A DNA stretch of 6,709 nucleotides. Origin: a virus. Taxonomy: Duplodnaviria > Heunggongvirae > Uroviricota > Caudoviricetes. The position numbers and the translations under genes are program-made. Shown here one piece after another: positions 1 through 6,709 of the stretch (position 1 is its first letter; every line of letters begins with the position of its first letter). Below the pieces are notes generated by a model. The model had not been told where the DNA came from. It did no database searches and worked only from the letters and a program-made list of their open reading frames with translations. Location of the stretch: the IMG/VR virus record IMGVR_UViG_2802429221_000016, positions 1-6,709 of that record; one strand, given 5' to 3'.

Positions 1-996
1 TTAACCCACTAGCCAGATCAACATCACAATGATGACGACGAATAATATCCACAGGCTGGGGCGCATTGACATTTCTTTCATCGTGTCAATTAATGGGGTA
101 AATGGATTGAGCAGCGGTTGAATATCACGCGGTTCAATGCCTTTCACCCGCCGCTGATAGAGCTGGTTAAGGATATCTTCGGCCTGTGCAGACGTCAGGG
201 CTGATTGTGTTGAAAGCCCATACTTTTGCTCAACATACGTCGATAATACCGTCAACTCGCTTGCATCCAGTGGCTGCTTTAGCGCCATCTGGAGTGACTC
301 CAGCGTCGGAGTGTGTTGCTGACTTAACGCCTGACGGGCCTGTAACCAGGTGACCAGATGGTTAAACAGTTTCGCCGGAATCAACTCGCCATCTTTCACC
401 CCTGAAAGTTCCAGCATCGATTGCCAAATCTGTTTGCTGGGTTCCCCTGTTGCCGCCGCGAGTTTGGTGACCAGTTGCTTGAGCGTATTGTGTTCCGCTG
501 GTAATAAAGGTCGGTCGGTCGCCTGGCGCTGTTGCGGCTGCGGGATAACCATCTTCCCTTCCTGTAGTAGCGTCAGGACGGTTTTTAATTGCTCTGGTGA
601 GAGTTGATTTAGCGGCGTCTGACCAAAGTTATGCCGGATATAATCCGTGACGGCCTGACGATTATTCCCCAGACGTAAATACTCCCCCAATTGGGCCAAA
701 AGTTGGCGGACAGAATAACTTTTTTGCGCAGACAGCAAACGTTGCGCAAGGTTTTGTTCTGCTGCCGGGAAATGGCGTGAAAGCAAAGGTGAATCACCCG
801 GCAGACCGATGTCGTGCTTTATATTGGCCCACAACTCTGCGCTCTGCTGTTGCGTCAGCGAAGTCACTTTGATCATCAAACTTTCCAACGCGGTACGTTG
901 CAAGCTGGATAAAGGCTGATTGCCTGCGCCAGACGACAGGTTATCCCCCTGACCTGGTGGTTGCGCAGGAGGAGGGCCTGAAAGAGGTTGTATCAT
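1..996 (-). CDS. flk: Flk-like tail-anchored inner-membrane protein (flagellar regulator Flk), complete
   Basis: 331-aa ORF. ATG at 996..994 with AAGGA Shine-Dalgarno 7 nt upstream (plus coords 1004-1008, read on minus strand). Pro/Gln-rich N-terminus MIQPLSGPPPAQPPGQGDNL and a single hydrophobic anchor SLWILFVVIIVMLIWLVG directly before the stop. Length, C-terminal anchor and position next to pdxB match enterobacterial Flk as I remember it; not verified by search. Confidence 0.7.
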   Translation of the reverse strand: MIQPLSGPPPAQPPGQGDNLSSGAGNQPLSSLQRTALESLMIKVTSLTQQQSAELWANIKHDIGLPGDSPLLSRHFPAAEQNLAQRLLSAQKSYSVRQLLAQLGEYLRLGNNRQAVTDYIRHNFGQTPLNQLSPEQLKTVLTLLQEGKMVIPQPQQRQATDRPLLPAEHNTLKQLVTKLAAATGEPSKQIWQSMLELSGVKDGELIPAKLFNHLVTWLQARQALSQQHTPTLESLQMALKQPLDASELTVLSTYVEQKYGLSTQSALTSAQAEDILNQLYQRRVKGIEPRDIQPLLNPFTPLIDTMKEMSMRPSLWILFVVIIVMLIWLVG

Positions 997-1095
997 TACG
1001 TATCCTTATACCTGAAATCATCGCAAGTATGCCTGGCCGCGAGATTATGGCACACTTGTCCGGTTAACTCTCGTTCTCATACAGGTAGCACAAAC

Positions 1096-1140
1096 GTGAA
1101 AATCCTTGTTGATGAAAAAGATGATCGGTTAATTTATTGA
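1096..1140 (+). pseudogene. pdxB: 5' remnant of pdxB (erythronate-4-phosphate dehydrogenase): native start plus 7 codons, then foreign sequence and a stop
   Basis: GTG at 1096 preceded by AGGT (1083-1086) reads M-K-I-L-V-D-E, identical to the PdxB N-terminus as I recall it (MKILVDENMPYA...). It then reads K-D-D-R-L-I-Y-stop (TGA 1138-1140) instead of N-M-P-Y-A. It is divergent from flk, as pdxB is in E. coli/Salmonella. The match is only 7 residues, so this rests on context and needs alignment to a reference. Confidence 0.4.
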
Positions 1141-1160
1141 TATAAAAGGATTTATATCAA
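1137..1160. repeat. Perfect 10-bp inverted repeat TTGATATAAA-agga-TTTATATCAA just inside the junction
   Basis: Read directly: 1137-1146 is the reverse complement of 1151-1160, with a 4-bp spacer. It overlaps the stop of the pdxB remnant. Candidate recombinase/regulator binding site or element-terminal structure; function not established. Confidence 0.5.
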
Positions 1161-1199
1161 CGTATGTCCACGCAGTGACCACATTTTCGAGATATAGTT

Positions 1200-1230
1200 A
1201 AAGCCCGTAAAATATGCGGGCTTTATAATT
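1200..1230 (+). terminator. Intrinsic-terminator-like hairpin followed by a U-rich tract
   Basis: AAAGCCCG (1200-1207) pairs with CGGGCTTT (1217-1224) around a 9-nt loop, followed by TATAATTCTTGCTTT. It would stop read-through from the native pdxB promoter into the element. The stem is flanked by A and T runs, so it could also act weakly on the minus strand. Confidence 0.4.
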
Positions 1231-1316: not shown

Positions 1317-2057
1317 ATGCTTCATTGGGTTTGTACAAAATGTCAGTCTAAAAATTCTACGAAGGAATCAGTGTGTCCTGCGTGTGGAACTTCTTTTTGG
1401 TCGACGCAGAAAAAAGAAAGGAGAGGGTGTTTATTGTTGGTTGTAATGTTCTTCGTTGTGTTTTGGGTTATTGGGCAATTATCCGGAAACGAATCCGATT
1501 CACAGGTAAATAATATTCCATCGAAAGATCATATTAGCGATGAACTTGCTTTATCTGGAGTAGACAAGGCGAAACCGTATTCTTTTGTGCGTTATGATGA
1601 CATAAGTTATGCGGGACGAAAGAGATTTAAGGTTTTTATAGTGTCGCCTGAGTCTCAAGATTTAGAATCAAGAGCTTCGACAGCAATGGCCGCGGCTATT
1701 GAGTGGCAGAAAGAGAAGAGAGCTGACTTTGTATCTGTGTTGCTTCTACCTACAGAAAATTCTGAAGGTAGTTATCGGTTGGCAATGGTTGATTATTCTC
1801 CGGATGGTTGCGGAACTGGTGCTGTATGTGATAATAAAAAATGGACTATATTGTCTAGTGACGTAATATTAACGAAATCGCAACTTCAATCTATATCCTT
1901 GTGGAATGAGTATAAGAAAAAGTTTGCGGGTAATGATGGAATTTTGGATTTAAAGGAAGAAAAGAAATTGAAGCAGTTTATTAGTAAACAGCTAAATATT
2001 CCTGTTAAGGATGTATTTGCTCCAGATATTTTTCCTTTAAAGAAAATCGAAGATTAA
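1317..2057 (+). CDS. Moron-like membrane protein: N-terminal Cys4 zinc ribbon, one TM helix, about 190-aa C-terminal domain; function unknown
   Basis: 246-aa ORF with GGAG (1305-1308) 8 nt before the ATG. CxxC-x10-CxxC (C6, C9, C20, C23), basic stretch QKKERRG, hydrophobic segment CLLLVVMFFVVFWVIGQL (about residues 38-55), then a hydrophilic domain containing a CGTGAVC cysteine pair. Positive-inside rule suggests N-in/C-out. Visibly AT-rich relative to flanks (by eye, not computed). Followed by a terminator. I do not recognise the C-terminal domain. Confidence 0.8.
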   Translation: MLHWVCTKCQSKNSTKESVCPACGTSFWSTQKKERRGCLLLVVMFFVVFWVIGQLSGNESDSQVNNIPSKDHISDELALSGVDKAKPYSFVRYDDISYAGRKRFKVFIVSPESQDLESRASTAMAAAIEWQKEKRADFVSVLLLPTENSEGSYRLAMVDYSPDGCGTGAVCDNKKWTILSSDVILTKSQLQSISLWNEYKKKFAGNDGILDLKEEKKLKQFISKQLNIPVKDVFAPDIFPLKKIED

Positions 2058-2216: not shown

Positions 2217-2251
2217 GACGGGGAAGTTGCCTTCCCCGTCGCGGTTTTCTT
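2217..2251. other. Perfect 10-bp palindromic hairpin abutting the hok stop codon
   Basis: GACGGGGAAG (2217-2226), loop TTGC, CTTCCCCGTC (2231-2240), then GCGG + TTTTCTT on the plus strand. It could be a second plus-strand terminator, or, read on the minus strand, a structured element in the hok 3' UTR. Confidence 0.4.
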
Positions 2252-2393
2252 ACTGTCTACACTGTAAGAACGCCGCAAACTCCGCTCCCCAGAAGCTCAT
2301 CCGTATCTCGCAGAGCGAACCCTGCAACATCCAGATGATGAGGATTGCCGTCACGCACAGTGTGGTGATGGCGATTAGCGATTTTTGCGACAT
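2250..2393 (-). CDS. hok: Hok/Gef-family type I toxin (small membrane-depolarising peptide), 47 aa
   Basis: Not in the ORF track (below its length cut-off). Minus-strand ATG at 2393..2391 with AGGAG 8 nt upstream; stop TAA at 2252..2250. Translation: MSQKSLIAITTLCVTAILIIWMLQGSLCEIRMSFWGAEFAAFLQCRQ. It shares the family layout (N-terminal TM helix, then W-M-x-x-x-S-L-C-E-I/L, then E-x-A-A-F-L-x-C) with E. coli HokA (...FTWMIRDSLCELHIKQESYELAAFLACKLKE) and R1 Hok (...[25 protein letters not shown]), both quoted from memory. Confidence 0.8.
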   Translation of the reverse strand: MSQKSLIAITTLCVTAILIIWMLQGSLCEIRMSFWGAEFAAFLQCRQ

Positions 2394-2496
2394 AGCGCTT
2401 GCTCCTTTTTCGGGGAGGCGCTAACCTACGACTTGCGAAGGTTGTATGGCTAGGGCCTCGGGTTAACGTTAAAGTTGACTCGGGGCCTTTCCACAT
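2257..2496 (-). CDS. mok: mok-like overlapping reading frame (modulator of hok translation)
   Basis: 79-codon ORF in a different frame that begins upstream of hok and overlaps nearly all of it, ending 7 nt from the hok stop. ATG at 2496 with GAAGG upstream. The protein is low-complexity and basic, as expected for a frame that exists for translational coupling rather than for its product. The true start could be internal. Confidence 0.4.
   Translation of the reverse strand: MWKGPESTLTLTRGPSHTTFASRRLAPPRKRSKRYVAKIANRHHHTVRDGNPHHLDVAGFALRDTDELLGSGVCGVLTV
2454..2487 (+). other. Strand-specific RNA hairpin (14 bp with three G-U pairs) antisense to the mok 5' region
   Basis: GGCCTCGGGTTAAC (2454-2467) pairs with GTTGACTCGGGGCC (2474-2487) around loop GTTAAA. 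All three non-Watson-Crick positions are G-U/U-G on the plus-strand RNA and would be C-A mismatches on the minus-strand RNA. Candidate part of a Sok-like antisense RNA; only TTT follows, so it is not a convincing terminator on its own. Confidence 0.3.
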
Positions 2497-2546
2497 TCGG
2501 CCTTCGGGTTTACCCTCCAGCCATCAGCCGAAAGGCACCCGCGCGA

Positions 2547-2580: not shown

Positions 2581-2610
2581 TTGAGACTTATCAGCCTTCT
2601 GATGTAAAAT
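2581..2610 (+). promoter_or_regulatory. Near-consensus sigma70 promoter of the candidate sRNA
   Basis: TTGAGA (2581-2586), 18-bp spacer, TAAAAT (2605-2610). It is back-to-back with the candidate hok promoter; the two -35 elements are 4 bp apart. Confidence 0.45.
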
Positions 2611-2616
2611 TCCCGA

Positions 2617-2681
2617 CCGCAGACATTATTCAGTCACGCATTTGATACATGCTTCCGCCGGCGTTCGCGCCGGTTTTTTTT
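2617..2681 (+). ncRNA. Candidate small RNA, about 65 nt, from promoter to intrinsic terminator
   Basis: Predicted start about 2616-2619, 7-9 nt after the -10. The 3' end is a hairpin CCGGCG (2658-2663), loop TTCG, CGCCGG (2668-2673) followed by eight T (2674-2681). No plausible ORF inside (the only ATG frame runs through the terminator). Sok-like antitoxin RNAs are about this size, but this unit overlaps the hok mRNA only if that mRNA starts to the right of 2681; identity unresolved. Confidence 0.4.
2656..2681 (+). terminator. Textbook Rho-independent terminator (GC stem, UUCG tetraloop, U8)
   Basis: Read directly: perfect 6-bp GC stem, extendable by one G-U pair, UUCG loop, eight consecutive T. 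Plus-strand specific (no U-run on the other side). Confidence 0.7.
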
Positions 2682-2915
2682 CGTCCTGTTGCTGCATAGA
2701 TCGTCATGCGCGATCGAGGCGCGGTATTGATCCTTTTTCAGTTTAATTTTGACTCTCAATTTTACGCATGCCGCGCCGCGTCTGGCTTCGTTGTTTGACG
2801 ATTTTTTGATGCGATCCTTTCGTGATCGTTTCCCGTCTCGCGTAAAATGCAAAAACTCTTTTAATATCATGCGGTTTTATTGCCCCTGCCATTTATGCGA
2901 TCGTAAAAACCACTC

Positions 2916-3020
2916 TGAAAACTGAAAAAAATTTCAAAGCGTGAAATTTCAGATCTTCGCTTTTCCCTCAGTTGCTGCGCGGGCTGGCGGTCATTTTTGC
3001 ACGGCAGAAAACTGAAAAAC
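2916..3020. repeat. A-tract repeat cluster: two copies of GAAAACTGAAAAA plus TGAAA/TTTCA palindromes
   Basis: GAAAACTGAAAAA at 2917-2929 and again at 3007-3019 (13/13). TGAAA-aaaa-TTTCA at 2923-2936 and the perfect 10-bp palindrome TGAAATTTCA at 2942-2951. Non-coding; candidate regulator or nucleoid-protein binding sites. Confidence 0.5.
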
Positions 3021-3033
3021 TGTTTCGACACAA

Positions 3034-3100
3034 AACCCGCGGGTTGGAGGGGGTAGCGCGGTTTACGTCACCTCACGCTTTACGTCACACCGTTTACGTG
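3034..3100. repeat. 12-bp perfect palindrome followed by three direct repeats of TTTACGT(C/G)
   Basis: AACCCGCGGGTT (3034-3045) is self-complementary. TTTACGTCA at 3062-3070 and 3079-3087, and TTTACGTG at 3093-3100, spaced 17 and 14 bp. Lies just downstream of the terminator-like hairpin that follows the 565-aa gene. Candidate operator / iteron / arm-type protein-binding array. Confidence 0.5.
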
Positions 3101-3149
3101 GTGTGCGCATACAGCGCCGGAATGGCACGCAGAACGCATTAATCATGTG

Positions 3150-3184
3150 GCAGATATGAAAACGCACGACCGGAGCCGTGCGTT
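3150..3184 (-). terminator. Candidate intrinsic terminator of the minus-strand structural operon
   Basis: AACGCACG (3161-3168) pairs with CGTGCGTT (3177-3184) around an 8-nt loop, about 40 nt after the stop at 3222-3224. On the minus-strand RNA it is followed by UUUUCAUAUCU. Confidence 0.4.
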
Positions 3185-3221
3185 GCGTGATGGGCGTTTA
3201 TGGGGGTTTTATGCCCGGTGA

Positions 3222-4919
3222 TCAGGCGATAAGGTCACCGTATTTTTCGCGCAGGCTCGTAGCCTGTTTGGCGTCTGCGGCAAGTTCGCTGCTGTTTGTT
3301 GGTGCGCCGGTGTTGCTGTGGGTGTGGTTTGCAGTGTGTGTGGCCAGCAACTGAACCAGATCCAGAATATCAATCAACAACGTCAGCAGATTAAGTCCGG
3401 ATTTTTCCCGTGAGCCACCGCGACCAATAAATACTGTCGGGGCTGTAAACTCCAGACCGCCGTCCGCCCGGCATGTTCTGCGGCCTCCCACGTTTTCAGT
3501 AAGGTCGCGCTCAATCGTGGATGTCGCCCCTTTGAGTTTAGTCAGCAAATCCTGCGCTACCATCTGGATATGCTCACCGGCTGCGATCGCATAATGACCA
3601 GTAGTAATGTGTTCTGTCTGGCCTGTCATCAGCTTGCTGGTTCCCAGAACGCTGGTTATGTCGTTTGCCTGTACTGTTGTTGTTCTGGTTGTTGTTGTGC
3701 GTTCTTCCTGATCGCTGTTAATGGTTCGCCTGGCTGAATGCTCCCTGATTTGCTGATCGGTTTCTCTGTGCCAGCTTCCGTCAGTCGTGACGCGCTGAAA
3801 CACTTCTGCGCGCTGTTGCTGCAGCTGTTCGCCGGGCTTTACATCAGGCAGGTTATGGCCAGCGGGTAAGATTTGCCTGATGACAGGTTTATCCGGTCGT
3901 CCTTCAATGTTGGATATTTCCACGATGGTGCCAGCCGGCGGGTAGGCAAAACATCCCGCCTCACTGCCAGCCATGGGGACGGGGAGCGGTACTGCCGGGT
4001 AAACGGGCGTATCGCTTTTATCGTTGCCGTTCTCATCAAGCAACTGCACATCGACGGCGTAGCGTGGGCGGAAACTGTCGGCCACATCGCCCAGGGTGGC
4101 GGGCTCCGTTGGTGCAATGACGCGCGCCAGCCGGGTATGTAGCGTACCGCTGGCCAGTTCCGGGAACTGTGTTTCCATTTGTCTGCGTAATGGTGATTTG
4201 GAAACAGGGCTGCCCGTGGCGGTAAGGCGCTCCCATGTCAGGGTCATTTTCTCGTTGTTGAGGGCTACACGGGTAATGCGCCCGGCCGGAAGGTTCACGC
4301 CCGGTCGCACAGTTTCCATAAACATGATGTCGATGCTGTTTCCGCCGCTTTGCCCGAGTGTGTACTGTTGCGGAATATCCGGCATTGTAATACTGGCAAA
4401 TCGTGAATCAGCTGCGCTTCCCACAAATACAGAACCGTCCGGCATTGGATGCCAGACGTAATCGCTGATACTGAATGCTCGCCCCAGTTGGCTGAGCAGT
4501 TGTGCTCCGCTGCCGCTGTGGGTGATGTAGGGAGTTGGTATGCTGACGTAATCCGCATCTGGCGTGGTGAAAACGATGCCGCTTTGTTTGCCCAGATTAT
4601 CGAGTACCCCCCGCAACGTCGGGTGTTGCATGGAGCAAGGGAAATCAAAATCCAGCACAGCAGCTGCTTCACGGATAAAAAGGCGACGTGAGCCATTTTC
4701 AGCAGGTTGATCGCGCTCAATGTAGCCGGAGAAATAGCGCCATGCTTCACCGTCACGGCCGAGATCAATTTGTACCATTGCGCCGGCAAGGCTGTGTTCG
4801 GGTGACAGATTGTTAACAGAAATGAAGCCACGACCGGCAGCATTCAGGGTAAGAACAAGGTTTATATCGGCAATTTCCACCCGTTCGCCATTAATCATGC
4901 AGCGTTGTATCAATTTCAT
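3222..4919 (-). CDS. Phage baseplate hub/central spike protein (fused gp27-like N-terminal region + gp5/gpV-like OB-fold and needle), 565 aa
   Basis: Strong SD GAGGAAGGG upstream; start overlaps the upstream stop (ATGA at 4916-4919). The segment PPAGTIVEISNIEGRPDKPVIRQIL fits the OB-fold signature of phage gp5/gpV and T6SS VgrG (typical VgrG form P-R-I-G-Q-E-V-V-V-D-F-L-E-G-D-P-D-Q-P-I-I, from memory). It is followed by Thr-rich beta-strand-like repeats (TTTTRTTTV, HITTGHYAIAAGEHI) and a His-rich apex THTANHTHSNTG resembling the metal-binding tip of P2 gpV-type spikes. The N-terminal 320 aa is unassigned and the hub call is inference. Confidence 0.55.
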   Translation of the reverse strand: MKLIQRCMINGERVEIADINLVLTLNAAGRGFISVNNLSPEHSLAGAMVQIDLGRDGEAWRYFSGYIERDQPAENGSRRLFIREAAAVLDFDFPCSMQHPTLRGVLDNLGKQSGIVFTTPDADYVSIPTPYITHSGSGAQLLSQLGRAFSISDYVWHPMPDGSVFVGSAADSRFASITMPDIPQQYTLGQSGGNSIDIMFMETVRPGVNLPAGRITRVALNNEKMTLTWERLTATGSPVSKSPLRRQMETQFPELASGTLHTRLARVIAPTEPATLGDVADSFRPRYAVDVQLLDENGNDKSDTPVYPAVPLPVPMAGSEAGCFAYPPAGTIVEISNIEGRPDKPVIRQILPAGHNLPDVKPGEQLQQQRAEVFQRVTTDGSWHRETDQQIREHSARRTINSDQEERTTTTRTTTVQANDITSVLGTSKLMTGQTEHITTGHYAIAAGEHIQMVAQDLLTKLKGATSTIERDLTENVGGRRTCRADGGLEFTAPTVFIGRGGSREKSGLNLLTLLIDILDLVQLLATHTANHTHSNTGAPTNSSELAADAKQATSLREKYGDLIA

Positions 4920-5491
4920 GTTTTCCCTTCCTCTTTCACACTCCCAATGCCAACAGCATCCAGACCAGAGCCAACGGCATCATTGATTTTTTTCCAGAAC
5001 GAACTTTGCGTATTCATGCCTTTGTCTGGTGCCTGTTCGCTGCCATTCTGGGTCTGCTGTCTGGCGATGGTTTTTTGTGAACCGCTACGTGCTGATGCTT
5101 TCTCTGGCACGCTTAATTTTTCCCTGAGAGTAAAGGTGACCTGCCAGTGCATTTTTCCCTGTTGTTCCGTGGCATCAATGCCACCAGAAAATACCCCCTG
5201 TCGCATATTGATTGCCTTCGCGGTAGCGTTAGCAATGCGATATGTTTTTTTAGCACCGTTGCTTTCTGTTGCCTCCGCAAGCTGAAAAATACGGGTCAGA
5301 ATAGCTTCATCGTTAAAATCAATAACCCCCGACACGCGCAGCTCTTTAGCCTTGTTTCCCTGCTGGGCGCTCGTGGTGCTGGTTGACTGTCCGGACATAT
5401 CTTTGTCCGGTAGTTGCATGGTGGCGCTGACGGTGATGTTGCGCAGCAGAATGGCTTCCCCGTCAAGCGCAAGGACAATCATCTGGGTCAT
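4916..5491 (-). CDS. Phage structural-operon protein, 191 aa, function unknown (possibly tail/baseplate-associated)
   Basis: Long ORF in the same operon; its stop overlaps the next start in ATGA, and its start region overlaps the upstream ORF by 29 nt. No motif I can assign; the tail/baseplate guess is from position only. Confidence 0.6.
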   Translation of the reverse strand: MTQMIVLALDGEAILLRNITVSATMQLPDKDMSGQSTSTTSAQQGNKAKELRVSGVIDFNDEAILTRIFQLAEATESNGAKKTYRIANATAKAINMRQGVFSGGIDATEQQGKMHWQVTFTLREKLSVPEKASARSGSQKTIARQQTQNGSEQAPDKGMNTQSSFWKKINDAVGSGLDAVGIGSVKEEGKT

Positions 5492-6176
5492 GTAGTGCTT
5501 CCCTTAGTGATGAGAGATTATCGCCGACGAACAGCATCACAGCTGTAAAAACCCACTCGGGGTGTGGGATGTTTTTTTGTATCAGCACTGCAGCCTGGCT
5601 AAGAGCTCCCTTGTAGCAAAAGCGCCACACCGGGCAAAATTTTTGCCGGAGTGCGGCCTGCTGATCAGCGATTTCCTGTAAGGCTTTATCTCTCGCATTC
5701 ATGAACTGATGCAGCGATGATGACAATGTTTCCGGTGATGTGGCGGCAGGAGTGGCTGCCTGTGCAATGGTTGCCGCCAGCGACATGCTTCGAGTGGTCT
5801 GTGTCGACAGCATTATCGGTTCCGGAAGTGATGTTGCCGGTCTGGCGGGGATTTGCATTCTGCTGATGGCCAGTGAAAGCTGGCTGGAGATCATGCGGGA
5901 CATTCGTCCCACCTCCGGCAACGGAAATGCGCCTGAAAATTGCCTGGCGAGTGATAAAAACTCGCCAGCAGAAGGGGTGCAAAATAACAGCGCCACAATG
6001 TCTTTTTCTGTGCTTTCTTTCAGATAGGGTAAAAGTGCAGATACAGCATTTTCGGGGCTGAGATAACGCCCCGATGGTTTGATGTTTCCGGTATTTTCTG
6101 ACCATGGATGAAGGCAAACCACAGAGCATTTAATGTGCATGGCTGACGGACGCAGAATTGCCTTTTCCCATTTCAT
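5463..6176 (-). CDS. Phage structural-operon protein, 237 aa, function unknown
   Basis: Long ORF; its start overlaps the upstream stop (ATGA at 6173-6176). Ala/Thr/Ser-rich central linker. No recognisable motif. Confidence 0.6.
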   Translation of the reverse strand: MKWEKAILRPSAMHIKCSVVCLHPWSENTGNIKPSGRYLSPENAVSALLPYLKESTEKDIVALLFCTPSAGEFLSLARQFSGAFPLPEVGRMSRMISSQLSLAISRMQIPARPATSLPEPIMLSTQTTRSMSLAATIAQAATPAATSPETLSSSLHQFMNARDKALQEIADQQAALRQKFCPVWRFCYKGALSQAAVLIQKNIPHPEWVFTAVMLFVGDNLSSLREALHDPDDCPCA

Positions 6177-6709
6177 TCTGACTCTCCAGTCTGAAAAGCG
6201 CGGATGTCGGCAAGATTATTCAGGCCATCCAGCACGTCCTTCATCTGTCGCTGACGTCGATAAATTTCATCATTGCGGTTAACCTGCGCCTGCGCCATAG
6301 CTGTAGCCAGCTCCTCAAGCTCTGGCATCGACATCTTCACTTGCTGATTATCGGCATCACCCCATGTCATAACGTCCCGCGCTGTGTCGGATTTTGATGC
6401 CATTACCACCGGATAGATACGGGCCAGTGAGCTGGGGCCAGCATTCCAGCTACGACCGTTCCATTCGAACGTGAACGGCTGCGCCTCCTGTTCTGTGCGC
6501 CACACCTCGATTTCCCGCTTTTTGGCATCCTTCGCCGCGGTGATAAGTTCCGGCGTGACGGTGAACGGGGTTATTTCTCCCCATTTGCCGCTCTGTAACT
6601 CTTCCCAGATGCGCTGGCCTGTCGGGACGCTATCGTCCTGCATGGCGGTATACGGGACGAATTCCGTTTCACCTTCAAATAACACCTCGCAGTCAACCGC
6701 ACCATTTTC
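6173..6709 (-). CDS. Phage structural-operon protein, 5' end outside the window (at least 178 codons visible)
   Basis: The frame stays open from 6709 down to the stop at 6173-6175. The track's start at 6685 is a GTG with no convincing SD, so the gene probably begins upstream of the window. Acidic, coiled C-terminal part. Not assignable. Confidence 0.55.
   Translation of the reverse strand, partial: ENGAVDCEVLFEGETEFVPYTAMQDDSVPTGQRIWEELQSGKWGEITPFTVTPELITAAKDAKKREIEVWRTEQEAQPFTFEWNGRSWNAGPSSLARIYPVVMASKSDTARDVMTWGDADNQQVKMSMPELEELATAMAQAQVNRNDEIYRRQRQMKDVLDGLNNLADIRAFQTGESE

What the first reader, a model, noticed from the sequence alone, without database searches (positions are those of the whole stretch)
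1096..1160. Element junction inside the 5' end of pdxB, next to flk
The reading frame that starts MKILVDE (matching the PdxB N-terminus as I recall it) diverges after codon 7 and stops 7 codons later. From that point the DNA changes composition and carries a perfect 10-bp inverted repeat. This implies integration within the first codons of pdxB. Unless the other end of the element supplies a new promoter and 5' coding end, pdxB (PLP biosynthesis) is inactivated. Integration into the 5' end of a protein-coding gene with replacement of its start is less common than tRNA 3'-end targeting.
Basis: partly seen in the sequence, partly recalled or inferred. Interest (0 to 1): 0.6.

Follow-up and report, generated by a model that had tools for sequence, protein, structure and literature searches.

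The report
Prophage junction inside pdxB start
This is the left end of a P2-family prophage inserted in the first codons of the vitamin-B6 gene pdxB, a published attachment site where the phage's other end supplies a new gene start, so it is real but ordinary.

Summary
Host DNA (flk, the flk-pdxB spacer, pdxB codons 1-7) matches an uninterrupted genome with the same Flk at 1115 of 1118 bases. From base 1119 identity falls to chance, GC drops from about 0.51 to 0.34-0.39, and the frame stops after 14 codons. A perfect 10-bp inverted repeat lies at 1137-1146/1151-1160.

The junction is attL of a PhiSM/P88-type temperate phage (Xuanwuvirus, Peduoviridae). The 20-bp core at 1099-1118 contains the published 17-bp PhiSM att sequence. 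Bases 1119-1191 are the distal arm of the phage attP, about 87% identical to PhiSM and P88_4B11.

About 5.6% of complete E. coli genomes carry both junctions (302 attL, 304 attR). At attR the phage arm supplies AAGGAG plus a TTG start, giving a 385-aa PdxB that begins MSETEKGLKILVDE. Magaziner et al. 2019 (PMC6456863) described this site and showed that lysogens grow on minimal medium.

The window is the end of a draft contig, probably from Escherichia marmotae. Its own attR and integrase could therefore not be seen.

Verdict: already known, low interest.

The parts
1..996 (-). flk (flagella biosynthesis regulator Flk), a host gene
   Evidence: 331-aa ORF; Pfam Flk_N. The identical protein occurs in E. 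marmotae-type genomes and is annotated flk in E. coli.
997..1095 (+). Native flk-pdxB intergenic region. It should hold the native pdxB promoter and ribosome-binding site, now left on the attL side.
   Evidence: Collinear with empty sites in E. coli K-12 and in E. marmotae-type genomes. No promoter was mapped here. The consensus scan found none on the + strand.
1096..1140 (+). Truncated pdxB'-phage fusion ORF (MKILVDEKDDRLIY*), a by-product of integration
   Evidence: Translation. Codons 1-7 are native PdxB; codons 8-14 and the stop come from the phage arm.
1099..1118 (+). att core AAAATCCTTGTTGATGAAAA, the identity segment shared by attB, attP, attL and attR. It contains the published 17-bp PhiSM att site at 1102-1118.
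   Evidence: The same 20-mer is at attL and attR of STEC308 and at empty pdxB sites of many Enterobacterales. attP of phage Chuche carries it exactly; P88_4B11 has one mismatch. The 17-bp site is given in PMC6456863.
1119..1191 (+). Distal (ogr-side) arm of the phage attP, now the phage side of attL
   Evidence: About 87% identical to the attP arms of PhiSM and P88_4B11. 49 attL loci gave 21 distinct versions with conserved blocks separated by variable spacers.
1130..1142 (-). IHF consensus match TATCAATAAATTA (WATCAANNNNTTR), a putative IHF bending site
   Evidence: It is the only match in the 6709-bp window; 0.36 are expected for the whole window. In all 21 arm variants the TTGATW and YAA flanks are kept while the four N positions vary: ttta, tttc, cttt, catt. 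Binding was not tested.
1137..1160 (.). Perfect 10-bp inverted repeat TTGATATAAA-aagg-TTTATATCAA. The left arm overlaps the IHF-like site. The right part belongs to the conserved AAAAGGATTTRTRTC block.
   Evidence: The block is conserved, but the symmetry is imperfect in most relatives.
1165..1182 (+). Direct repeats TGTCCAC-gcag-TGACCAC, 11 bp start to start. Putative arm-type integrase binding sites.
   Evidence: The same 18-mer (TGTCCACGCAGTGWCCAC) lies in the same orientation on the other arm, inside the 3' end of int (L001 39608-39625). It is also present in nearly all attL/attP loci fetched. Binding is inferred by analogy with lambda/P2-type integrases.
1199..1225 (+). Intrinsic-terminator-like hairpin just beyond the att arm
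   Evidence: A GC-rich hairpin sits at this position in all 21 arm variants although its sequence differs. In free phage it lies downstream of int-attP.
1317..2057 (+). Cargo gene: zinc-ribbon plus DUF4875 protein (246 aa), low GC
   Evidence: Pfam PF16175, E 7e-35. The slot between att and the phage genes holds different cargo in other prophages at this site.
2250..2540 (-). hok/sok-type toxin-antitoxin locus (Hok ORF at 2250-2393)
   Evidence: Pfam HOK_GEF, E 6.5e-7. Rfam sok RF01794 hit at 2380-2540: 35.8 bits, below the gathering score of 59, E 7.5e-6.
3222..6709 (-). Distal end of the phage tail/baseplate operon: a 565-aa protein, HP1_ORF34 baseplate protein (4916-5491), a 237-aa protein, and a DUF4376 protein that runs off the window
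   Evidence: Pfam. The same block follows tail-fibre genes at the end of P2/HP1-family prophages in E. coli. The window ends at the contig end.

Best explanation
Window 1099-1191 is attL, the host-phage junction left by site-specific integration of a PhiSM/P88-type temperate phage (Xuanwuvirus, Peduoviridae, P2 family) into codons 2-8 of pdxB.

The phage's tyrosine integrase recombines a 20-bp identity segment (AAAATCCTTGTTGATGAAAA) shared by attP and the 5' end of pdxB. The native promoter, ribosome-binding site and first seven codons stay on the flk side. There they read into the phage arm and stop after 14 codons, and a hairpin terminator follows about 60 bp further on.

The body of pdxB goes to the other end of the prophage (attR). 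The int-proximal attP arm there carries AAGGAG plus a TTG codon in frame. PdxB is then made as a 385-aa protein in which the initiator Met is replaced by MSETEKGL.

The arm in the window carries an IHF-consensus site. It also carries a pair of 11-bp-spaced direct repeats that recur on the other arm. This is the layout expected of a heterobivalent (lambda/P2-type) integrase attP.

Shown here: the breakpoint, the core, arm homology to free-phage attP, and the attR structure in relatives. Published: minimal-medium growth of lysogens. Inferred: protein binding to the arm motifs, use of the TTG start, and that this genome's own attR is intact.
For: Breakpoint at 1118/1119 against an empty site from the same lineage: 3/1118 mismatches, then 26% identity.

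The same attL plus cargo in STEC308 is paired with the core, an integrase and pdxB 18.7 kb away. In STEC711 and STEC719 the pair is about 35 kb apart.

attP of free phages P88_4B11 and Chuche equals the attR arm plus core plus an attL arm like the window's. The window arm is about 87% identical to PhiSM and P88_4B11. The STEC308 integrase gene is 92.6-97.9% identical in nucleotide sequence to those of PhiSM, P88_4B11, PhiR44_2 and Chuche.

302 of 5426 complete E. coli genomes carry attL and 304 carry attR.

The in-frame TTG ORF at attR encodes 385 aa. The chimeric protein is in public collections on at least 1000 contigs. It includes E. marmotae versions such as AUT25725.1 of the 4,671,322-bp genome whose attL is L006.

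Published: the 17-bp att site, the TTG and AAGGAG, and growth of MG1655(PhiSM) on M9 glucose (PMC6456863).

Arm motifs: the IHF consensus match is unique in the window and its variation across relatives fits the consensus. The direct-repeat 18-mer is on both arms.
Against: The attR, integrase and pdxB body of this particular genome are not in the window. The window is the last 6709 bases of a draft contig, so rescue of pdxB here is inferred from relatives.

Some relatives are rearranged. STEC306-308 hold an 18.7-kb deleted remnant with a frameshifted replication gene. In STEC316 attL and attR are 1.7 Mb apart on opposite strands.

Use of the TTG start has not been shown directly. NCBI's pipeline sometimes annotates pdxB from the internal ATG (native codon 9) instead.

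No good sigma-70 promoter was found in the attR arm by consensus scan. The published -10 (TAAAGG) overlaps the Shine-Dalgarno sequence. How pdxB is transcribed in lysogens is therefore open.
Confidence: 0.9

Rival explanations
1. The junction is a true integration, but in this strain pdxB is not rescued. The far end has been lost, rearranged or mutated, so the strain is a vitamin-B6 auxotroph or depends on a bypass.
For: attR is not visible because the contig ends inside the prophage. Elements at this site do decay or rearrange in relatives.
Against: attL and attR counts are almost equal in complete E. coli genomes, 302 against 304. E. marmotae genomes with the chimeric 385-aa PdxB exist. pdxB is needed for growth without pyridoxine, and lysogens grow on minimal medium (PMC6456863). 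Even the 18.7-kb remnant in STEC308 keeps int, attR and pdxB intact.
Confidence: 0.06
2. The mechanism of integration is the same, but pdxB at attR is transcribed mainly by read-through from the prophage's lysogenic C-int operon, not from a promoter in the att arm. In the free phage a terminator follows attP. Integration moves that terminator to attL and puts pdxB directly downstream of int.
For: No terminator-like site lies between int and pdxB at attR. The only + strand promoter-like hit overlaps the TTG codon itself. A hairpin terminator sits just past the distal arm in every attP/attL variant. C, int and pdxB are co-oriented. The published -10 box TAAAGG overlaps the AAGGAG ribosome-binding site, so a transcript started from it would lack that site (sequence).
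Against: There are no transcript data. A 13-bp hairpin without a U-tract lies between int and the TTG and might attenuate read-through. Consensus scans miss weak or activator-dependent promoters. The paper's promoter prediction has not been disproved.
Confidence: 0.3
3. The discontinuity is an assembly chimera, or the end of an IS or transposon whose terminal inverted repeat is the 10-bp palindrome.
For: The window lies at the end of a draft contig. An inverted repeat lies near the breakpoint.
Against: The identical junction is present in 302 closed E. coli genomes and about 45 IMG/VR prophage contigs. The two repeat arms are 4 nt apart within one conserved attP arm that also exists in free phage genomes. 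No transposase is present in the window. A core duplication with an integrase at the far end is seen in relatives.
Confidence: 0.01

Closest known systems
Citrobacter phage PhiSM (Shae_phiSM, OR565851.1) integrated in E. coli K-12 pdxB (Magaziner et al. 2019, J Bacteriol 201:e00638-18, PMC6456863)
   Same: Same att sequence: the 17-bp ATCCTTGTTGATGAAAA, 6 bp inside pdxB. Same attR solution, with a phage TTG and AAGGAG reading into pdxB. The distal att arm is about 87% identical to window 1099-1200. The integrase gene is 96.8% identical to that of the E. coli element sharing this window's attL and cargo.
   Different: The host here is probably E. marmotae. The cargo next to attL differs: DUF4875 plus hok/sok here, against a hypothetical protein plus TagO in PhiSM. 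This genome's integrase and attR were not seen. I read the shared identity as 20 bp rather than 17.
Escherichia phages P88 / P88_4B11, Chuche and PhiR44_2 (Xuanwuvirus, Peduoviridae)
   Same: The free-phage attP has the same order: int 3' end with direct repeats, P arm with AAGGAG-TTG, core, IHF-like site, AAAAGGATTT block, direct repeats, terminator.
   Different: P88_4B11 has one mismatch in the core (TTGAGGAAAA). The spacers and the terminator sequence differ, and so does the cargo beyond the arm.
Bacteriophage P2 attP / Int-IHF-Cox system
   Same: The gene order C-int-attP with cox divergent is the same. So is the tyrosine integrase with repeats on both arms, and an IHF-type site in one arm. 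The P2 layout is recalled from Yu and Haggard-Ljungquist 1993 and is mentioned in PMC3936717.
   Different: P2's preferred site locI is not inside the start of a gene, and no gene 5' end is rebuilt. Core and arm sequences are unrelated. Cox boxes were not identified here.
Phage 21 / e14 integration in icd
   Same: Integration is inside a housekeeping protein-coding gene, and the phage carries a substitute gene end so that function is kept (established knowledge).
   Different: There the 3' end of the gene is replaced. Here the 5' end is replaced, including the start codon and ribosome-binding site and whatever drives transcription.

Membership tests
PhiSM/P88-type (Xuanwuvirus) prophage at the pdxB attachment site | The junction carries the published att sequence ATCCTTGTTGATGAAAA, starting 6 bp inside pdxB | tested here: met
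   Window 1102-1118 is the exact sequence, and GTG is at 1096 (PMC6456863).
PhiSM/P88-type (Xuanwuvirus) prophage at the pdxB attachment site | DNA beyond the core is homologous to the attP arm of sequenced phages of this group | tested here: met
   About 87% identity over roughly 100 bp to PhiSM and P88_4B11. Four-way alignment with Chuche.
PhiSM/P88-type (Xuanwuvirus) prophage at the pdxB attachment site | A PhiSM-type tyrosine integrase gene at the other end of the element | not testable with these tools
   The window and its contig end inside the prophage. The feature is present in E. coli genomes with the same attL and cargo.
PhiSM/P88-type (Xuanwuvirus) prophage at the pdxB attachment site | A second copy of the core at attR, fused in frame to pdxB with a phage TTG and AAGGAG | not testable with these tools
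   Outside the window. Met in STEC308 and in IMG/VR loci L115, L145 and L172. E. marmotae chimeric PdxB proteins exist.
PhiSM/P88-type (Xuanwuvirus) prophage at the pdxB attachment site | P2/HP1-family structural genes within the element | tested here: met
   HP1_ORF34 baseplate protein (E 1e-53) and a DUF4376 protein. In E. coli the block is contiguous with tail-fibre genes.
PhiSM/P88-type (Xuanwuvirus) prophage at the pdxB attachment site | Lysogen remains prototrophic for vitamin B6 | not testable with these tools
   Published for MG1655(PhiSM) on M9 glucose. Not known for this strain.
Heterobivalent tyrosine-integrase attP (lambda/P2 type) | Arm-type repeats on both arms, distinct from the core | tested here: inconclusive
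   TGTCCACGCAGTGWCCAC occurs on both arms in direct orientation and is conserved in 45 loci. This is sequence evidence only; integrase binding was not tested.
Heterobivalent tyrosine-integrase attP (lambda/P2 type) | Binding site for a host bending protein (IHF) between core and arm sites | tested here: inconclusive
   There is a single WATCAANNNNTTR match in the window, at 1130-1142. Conservation across 21 variants follows the consensus. Binding was not tested.

The most novel reading that the evidence does not exclude
Integration does more than preserve pdxB: it rewires it. The terminator that follows attP in the free phage is carried to attL, and pdxB ends up directly downstream of the lysogenic C-int operon with no terminator between them. 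Vitamin-B6 synthesis in lysogens would then be transcribed from the prophage's immunity promoter rather than from the growth-rate-regulated native pdxB promoter. The promoter proposed in the literature cannot coexist with the ribosome-binding site it overlaps.
Probability: 0.3. Interest if true: 0.35.

Novelty: already known. Interest (0 to 1): 0.1.

Why it matters
It matters little beyond annotation. The finding shows that a reader without tools can recognise a 5'-end attachment site correctly. It also adds an instance, probably in E. marmotae, of a phage att site found in about 5.6% of complete E. coli genomes.

Two practical points follow. First, annotation pipelines are inconsistent at this site. 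They call pdxB either as the 385-aa chimeric protein or as a 370-aa protein from an internal ATG that would lack the first beta-strand residues, and the 14-codon pdxB' stub at attL is ignored. Second, how pdxB is transcribed in lysogens is not settled, because the published promoter overlaps the ribosome-binding site. This is a small, directly testable question about how a prophage takes over expression of an essential-pathway gene.

Tried and rejected
1. Fetching the source genome's attR. The DUF4376 ORF of the window is not on record because it runs off the window. Look-up of the 565-aa protein identified the source contig, PTSC01000031.1 of GCA_002965085.1, but that contig ends where the window ends.

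2. A scan of one genome per species for the 20-bp core returned almost only empty pdxB sites and chance matches in unrelated phyla. It returned no attR. The one attL found was on a contig labelled Planococcaceae that is clearly Escherichia DNA. E. marmotae HT073016 was missed at attL because its core is 19/20.

3. Rfam at gathering threshold found nothing in the window. Only a sub-threshold sok hit appeared with the E-value threshold.

4. I looked for divergent integrases that target the same core, to test selection on the TTG and SD. Integrases at 97% identity or more share an almost identical arm, so there is no power. Those at 80% identity or less have other downstream sequences and no core. 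Most IMG/VR prophage contigs are cut at the int stop.

5. Transposon terminal repeat, and terminator, as explanations of the 10-bp palindrome. Both were rejected because the repeat is AT-only, sits inside the conserved attP arm, overlaps the IHF-like site, and is imperfect in most relatives.

6. The P2 arm-site consensus (TGTGGACA, from memory) resembles the reverse complement of the TGTCCAC repeat. I could not verify it in the open papers searched, so it is not used as evidence.

Full report
**What is in the window.** flk occupies 1-996 on the minus strand. A 99-bp spacer follows, and a GTG at 1096 opens MKILVDE.

The window is identical to the last 6709 bases of contig PTSC01000031.1 of assembly GCA_002965085.1. 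It ends where that contig ends. Its Flk protein is identical to that of genomes whose PdxB is named Escherichia marmotae by NCBI. One of these is the 4,671,322-bp chromosome CP025979.1. I therefore take the host to be E. marmotae or a very close relative; this is an inference.

**Checking the observation.** I compared the window with an uninterrupted flk-pdxB region from a genome with the same Flk (L005).
- Window 1-1118 has 3 mismatches.
- The next 100 bases are 26% identical, which is chance.
- The frame reads MKILVDEKDDRLIY*, against native MKILVDENMPYAREL.
- In every one of 5426 complete E. coli genomes, flk-side homology ends at window 1118 unless the element is present.
- GC falls from about 0.51 to 0.28-0.42 between 1101 and 2100.
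- The 10-bp perfect inverted repeat is at 1137-1146/1151-1160. It occurs in 2% of shuffles of the AT-rich region.

**What it is.** E. coli STEC308 carries the same junction and the same 6.6 kb of cargo at 93% identity. There the inserted DNA runs 18.7 kb, to a Cox/C/integrase module that lies directly upstream of pdxB.

The 20-mer AAAATCCTTGTTGATGAAAA is present at both ends of that element and once at empty sites.
- At the flk end it is preceded by native GTG and followed by phage DNA.
- At the pdxB end it is preceded by phage DNA and followed by native ...TATGCCTTATGCC.

This is the signature of conservative site-specific recombination: attL and attR sharing a core with attB.

The integrase gene is 92.6-97.9% identical to those of phages P88_4B11, PhiSM (Shae_phiSM), PhiR44_2 and Chuche. 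Those that are classified belong to Xuanwuvirus, Peduoviridae.

In the free phages P88_4B11 and Chuche, attP lies just after int. It reads attR arm, then core, then an arm like window 1119-1191. The window arm is about 87% identical to those of PhiSM and P88_4B11. Window 1099-1191 is therefore attL, made of the core plus the int-distal attP arm.

**How common it is.** 302 of 5426 complete E. coli genomes have this attL and 304 have the matching int-attR-pdxB junction. IMG/VR holds about 45 further attL junctions.

The exact core is conserved at the pdxB start in many genera of Enterobacterales, where nearly all sites are empty.

**What happens to pdxB.** At attR the phage arm reads ...ATAAAGGAGCCTTAGATTGTCAGAGACTGAAAAAGGGTTA|AAAATCC... 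A TTG seven bases after AAGGAG is in frame with pdxB. It gives a 385-aa protein, MSETEKGL + KILVDENMPYAR....
- The exact STEC308 chimeric protein is on at least 1000 contigs in the public collection.
- E. marmotae versions exist on dozens of contigs. One is AUT25725.1 of CP025979.1, whose attL I read in L006.
- NCBI's pipeline sometimes calls a 370-aa product from native codon 9 instead.

**This is already published.** Magaziner et al. 2019 (PMC6456863) mapped PhiSM integration in E. coli K-12 to a 17-bp site, ATCCTTGTTGATGAAAA, 6 bp inside pdxB. They pointed out the TTG, the AAGGAG and a putative -35/-10. They also showed that MG1655(PhiSM) grows like wild type on M9 glucose, whereas pdxB mutants are auxotrophs.

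This holds at least in relatives.

**Anatomy of the arm in the window.** I compared 49 attL loci, which gave 21 distinct arm sequences. After the core the arm runs as follows.
- A variable stretch of about 10 nt.
- YAA-N4-TTGATW. On the minus strand this is the IHF consensus WATCAANNNNTTR. It is the only match in the window, at 1130-1142. Only the four N positions vary among relatives.
- A conserved AAAAGGATTTRTRTC block.
- A variable stretch of 5-6 nt.
- TGTCCACGCAGTGACCACATTTTCGAG (1165-1191). Its two 7-mers are 11 bp apart. The same 18-mer lies in the same orientation inside the 3' end of int on the other arm.
- A GC-rich hairpin terminator whose sequence differs between variants but whose position is constant (1199-1225 here).

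I interpret these as an IHF site, arm-type integrase sites and a terminator, by analogy with lambda and P2. None was tested for binding.

It is perfect only in some variants. Its symmetry is therefore probably incidental to, or only part of, a protein-binding region.

**An open point on mechanism.** The published -10 (TAAAGG) overlaps the Shine-Dalgarno sequence, so a transcript started from it would lack that ribosome-binding site.

A consensus scan finds no convincing promoter in the attR arm and no terminator between int and pdxB. There is only a 13-bp hairpin without a U-tract.

In the free phage the hairpin terminator lies just beyond attP, and integration moves it to attL. pdxB may therefore be transcribed by read-through from the C-int operon. 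I give this about 0.3. It is the most novel reading that the evidence allows.

**The rest of the element in the window.**
- A low-GC cargo gene encoding a zinc-ribbon/DUF4875 protein (1317-2057).
- A hok/sok-type locus (2250-2540).
- An ORF-poor stretch of about 600 bp containing short repeats.
- The distal end of a P2/HP1-family tail/baseplate operon (3222 to beyond 6709), which includes an HP1_ORF34 homologue.

The same block ends a complete prophage next to serS in E. coli A36. With the same attL-proximal cargo, the element is about 35 kb in STEC711 and STEC719 but an 18.7-kb deleted remnant in STEC306-308. Which state applies here is unknown.

**Limits.** The attR, integrase and pdxB body of this genome could not be retrieved. 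Intactness of pdxB here is therefore inferred, at about 0.9.

**Verdict.** The finding is a correct reading of a real feature. That feature is a further instance of a published and common prophage attachment site. Novelty: already known. Interest: 0.1.

Noticed in passing
window 2600-3220: An ORF-poor stretch of about 600 bp lies between hok/sok and the 565-aa gene. AAACTGAAAAA occurs at 2919-2929 and 3009-3019, with an inverted copy at 2734-2744. CG(G/C)TTTACGTCAC occurs twice at 3059-3088, followed by a third partial copy. There was no Rfam match and the function is unknown.
   Followed up: partly
window 2250-2540 (-): A hok/sok-type toxin-antitoxin locus is carried as prophage cargo. The Hok ORF matches PF01848. 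The sok RNA model scores 35.8 bits, below Rfam's gathering score of 59, so it is a divergent member.
   Followed up: partly
NZ_CP041431.1 (E. coli STEC316): attL at 1.567 Mb (+), attR at 3.286 Mb (-): The two ends of the pdxB prophage are about 1.7 Mb apart on opposite strands. This implies a large inversion, or a misassembly, with one breakpoint inside the prophage.
   Followed up: no
L170 2391-2420 (IMG/VR); L162 6001-6097 (plasmid NZ_LR883008.1): The same integrase/attP also sits at secondary sites. One is in a gene reading ...ILVDEYQDVN..., a UvrD-like helicase motif that mimics pdxB's KILVDE codons. Another is on a 142-kb ETEC plasmid next to a topoisomerase gene fragment, with an ogr/hok/TagO remnant. 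PMC6456863 reports a traF-like gene as the site in C. rodentium.
   Followed up: partly
L001 39839 (STEC308 pdxB annotation); proteins P0016, P0018, P0021: RefSeq annotates pdxB at occupied sites inconsistently. It is called either as the 385-aa TTG-initiated chimera or as a 370-aa product from internal ATG codon 9, which would lack the KILVDE segment.
   Followed up: partly
L001 21100-39820 versus NZ_CP041416.1 1646231-1681249: With identical attL-proximal cargo, the element is a prophage of about 35 kb in STEC711 and STEC719. In STEC306-308 it is an 18.7-kb remnant lacking head and terminase genes, with a frameshifted replication endonuclease and a ParM/partition module.
   Followed up: no
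L028 (contig DEQA01000038.1, labelled Planococcaceae bacterium UBA3378): A 4.2-kb contig in a Planococcaceae MAG carries an Escherichia flk-pdxB attL junction. It is evidently contamination of the bin.
   Followed up: no
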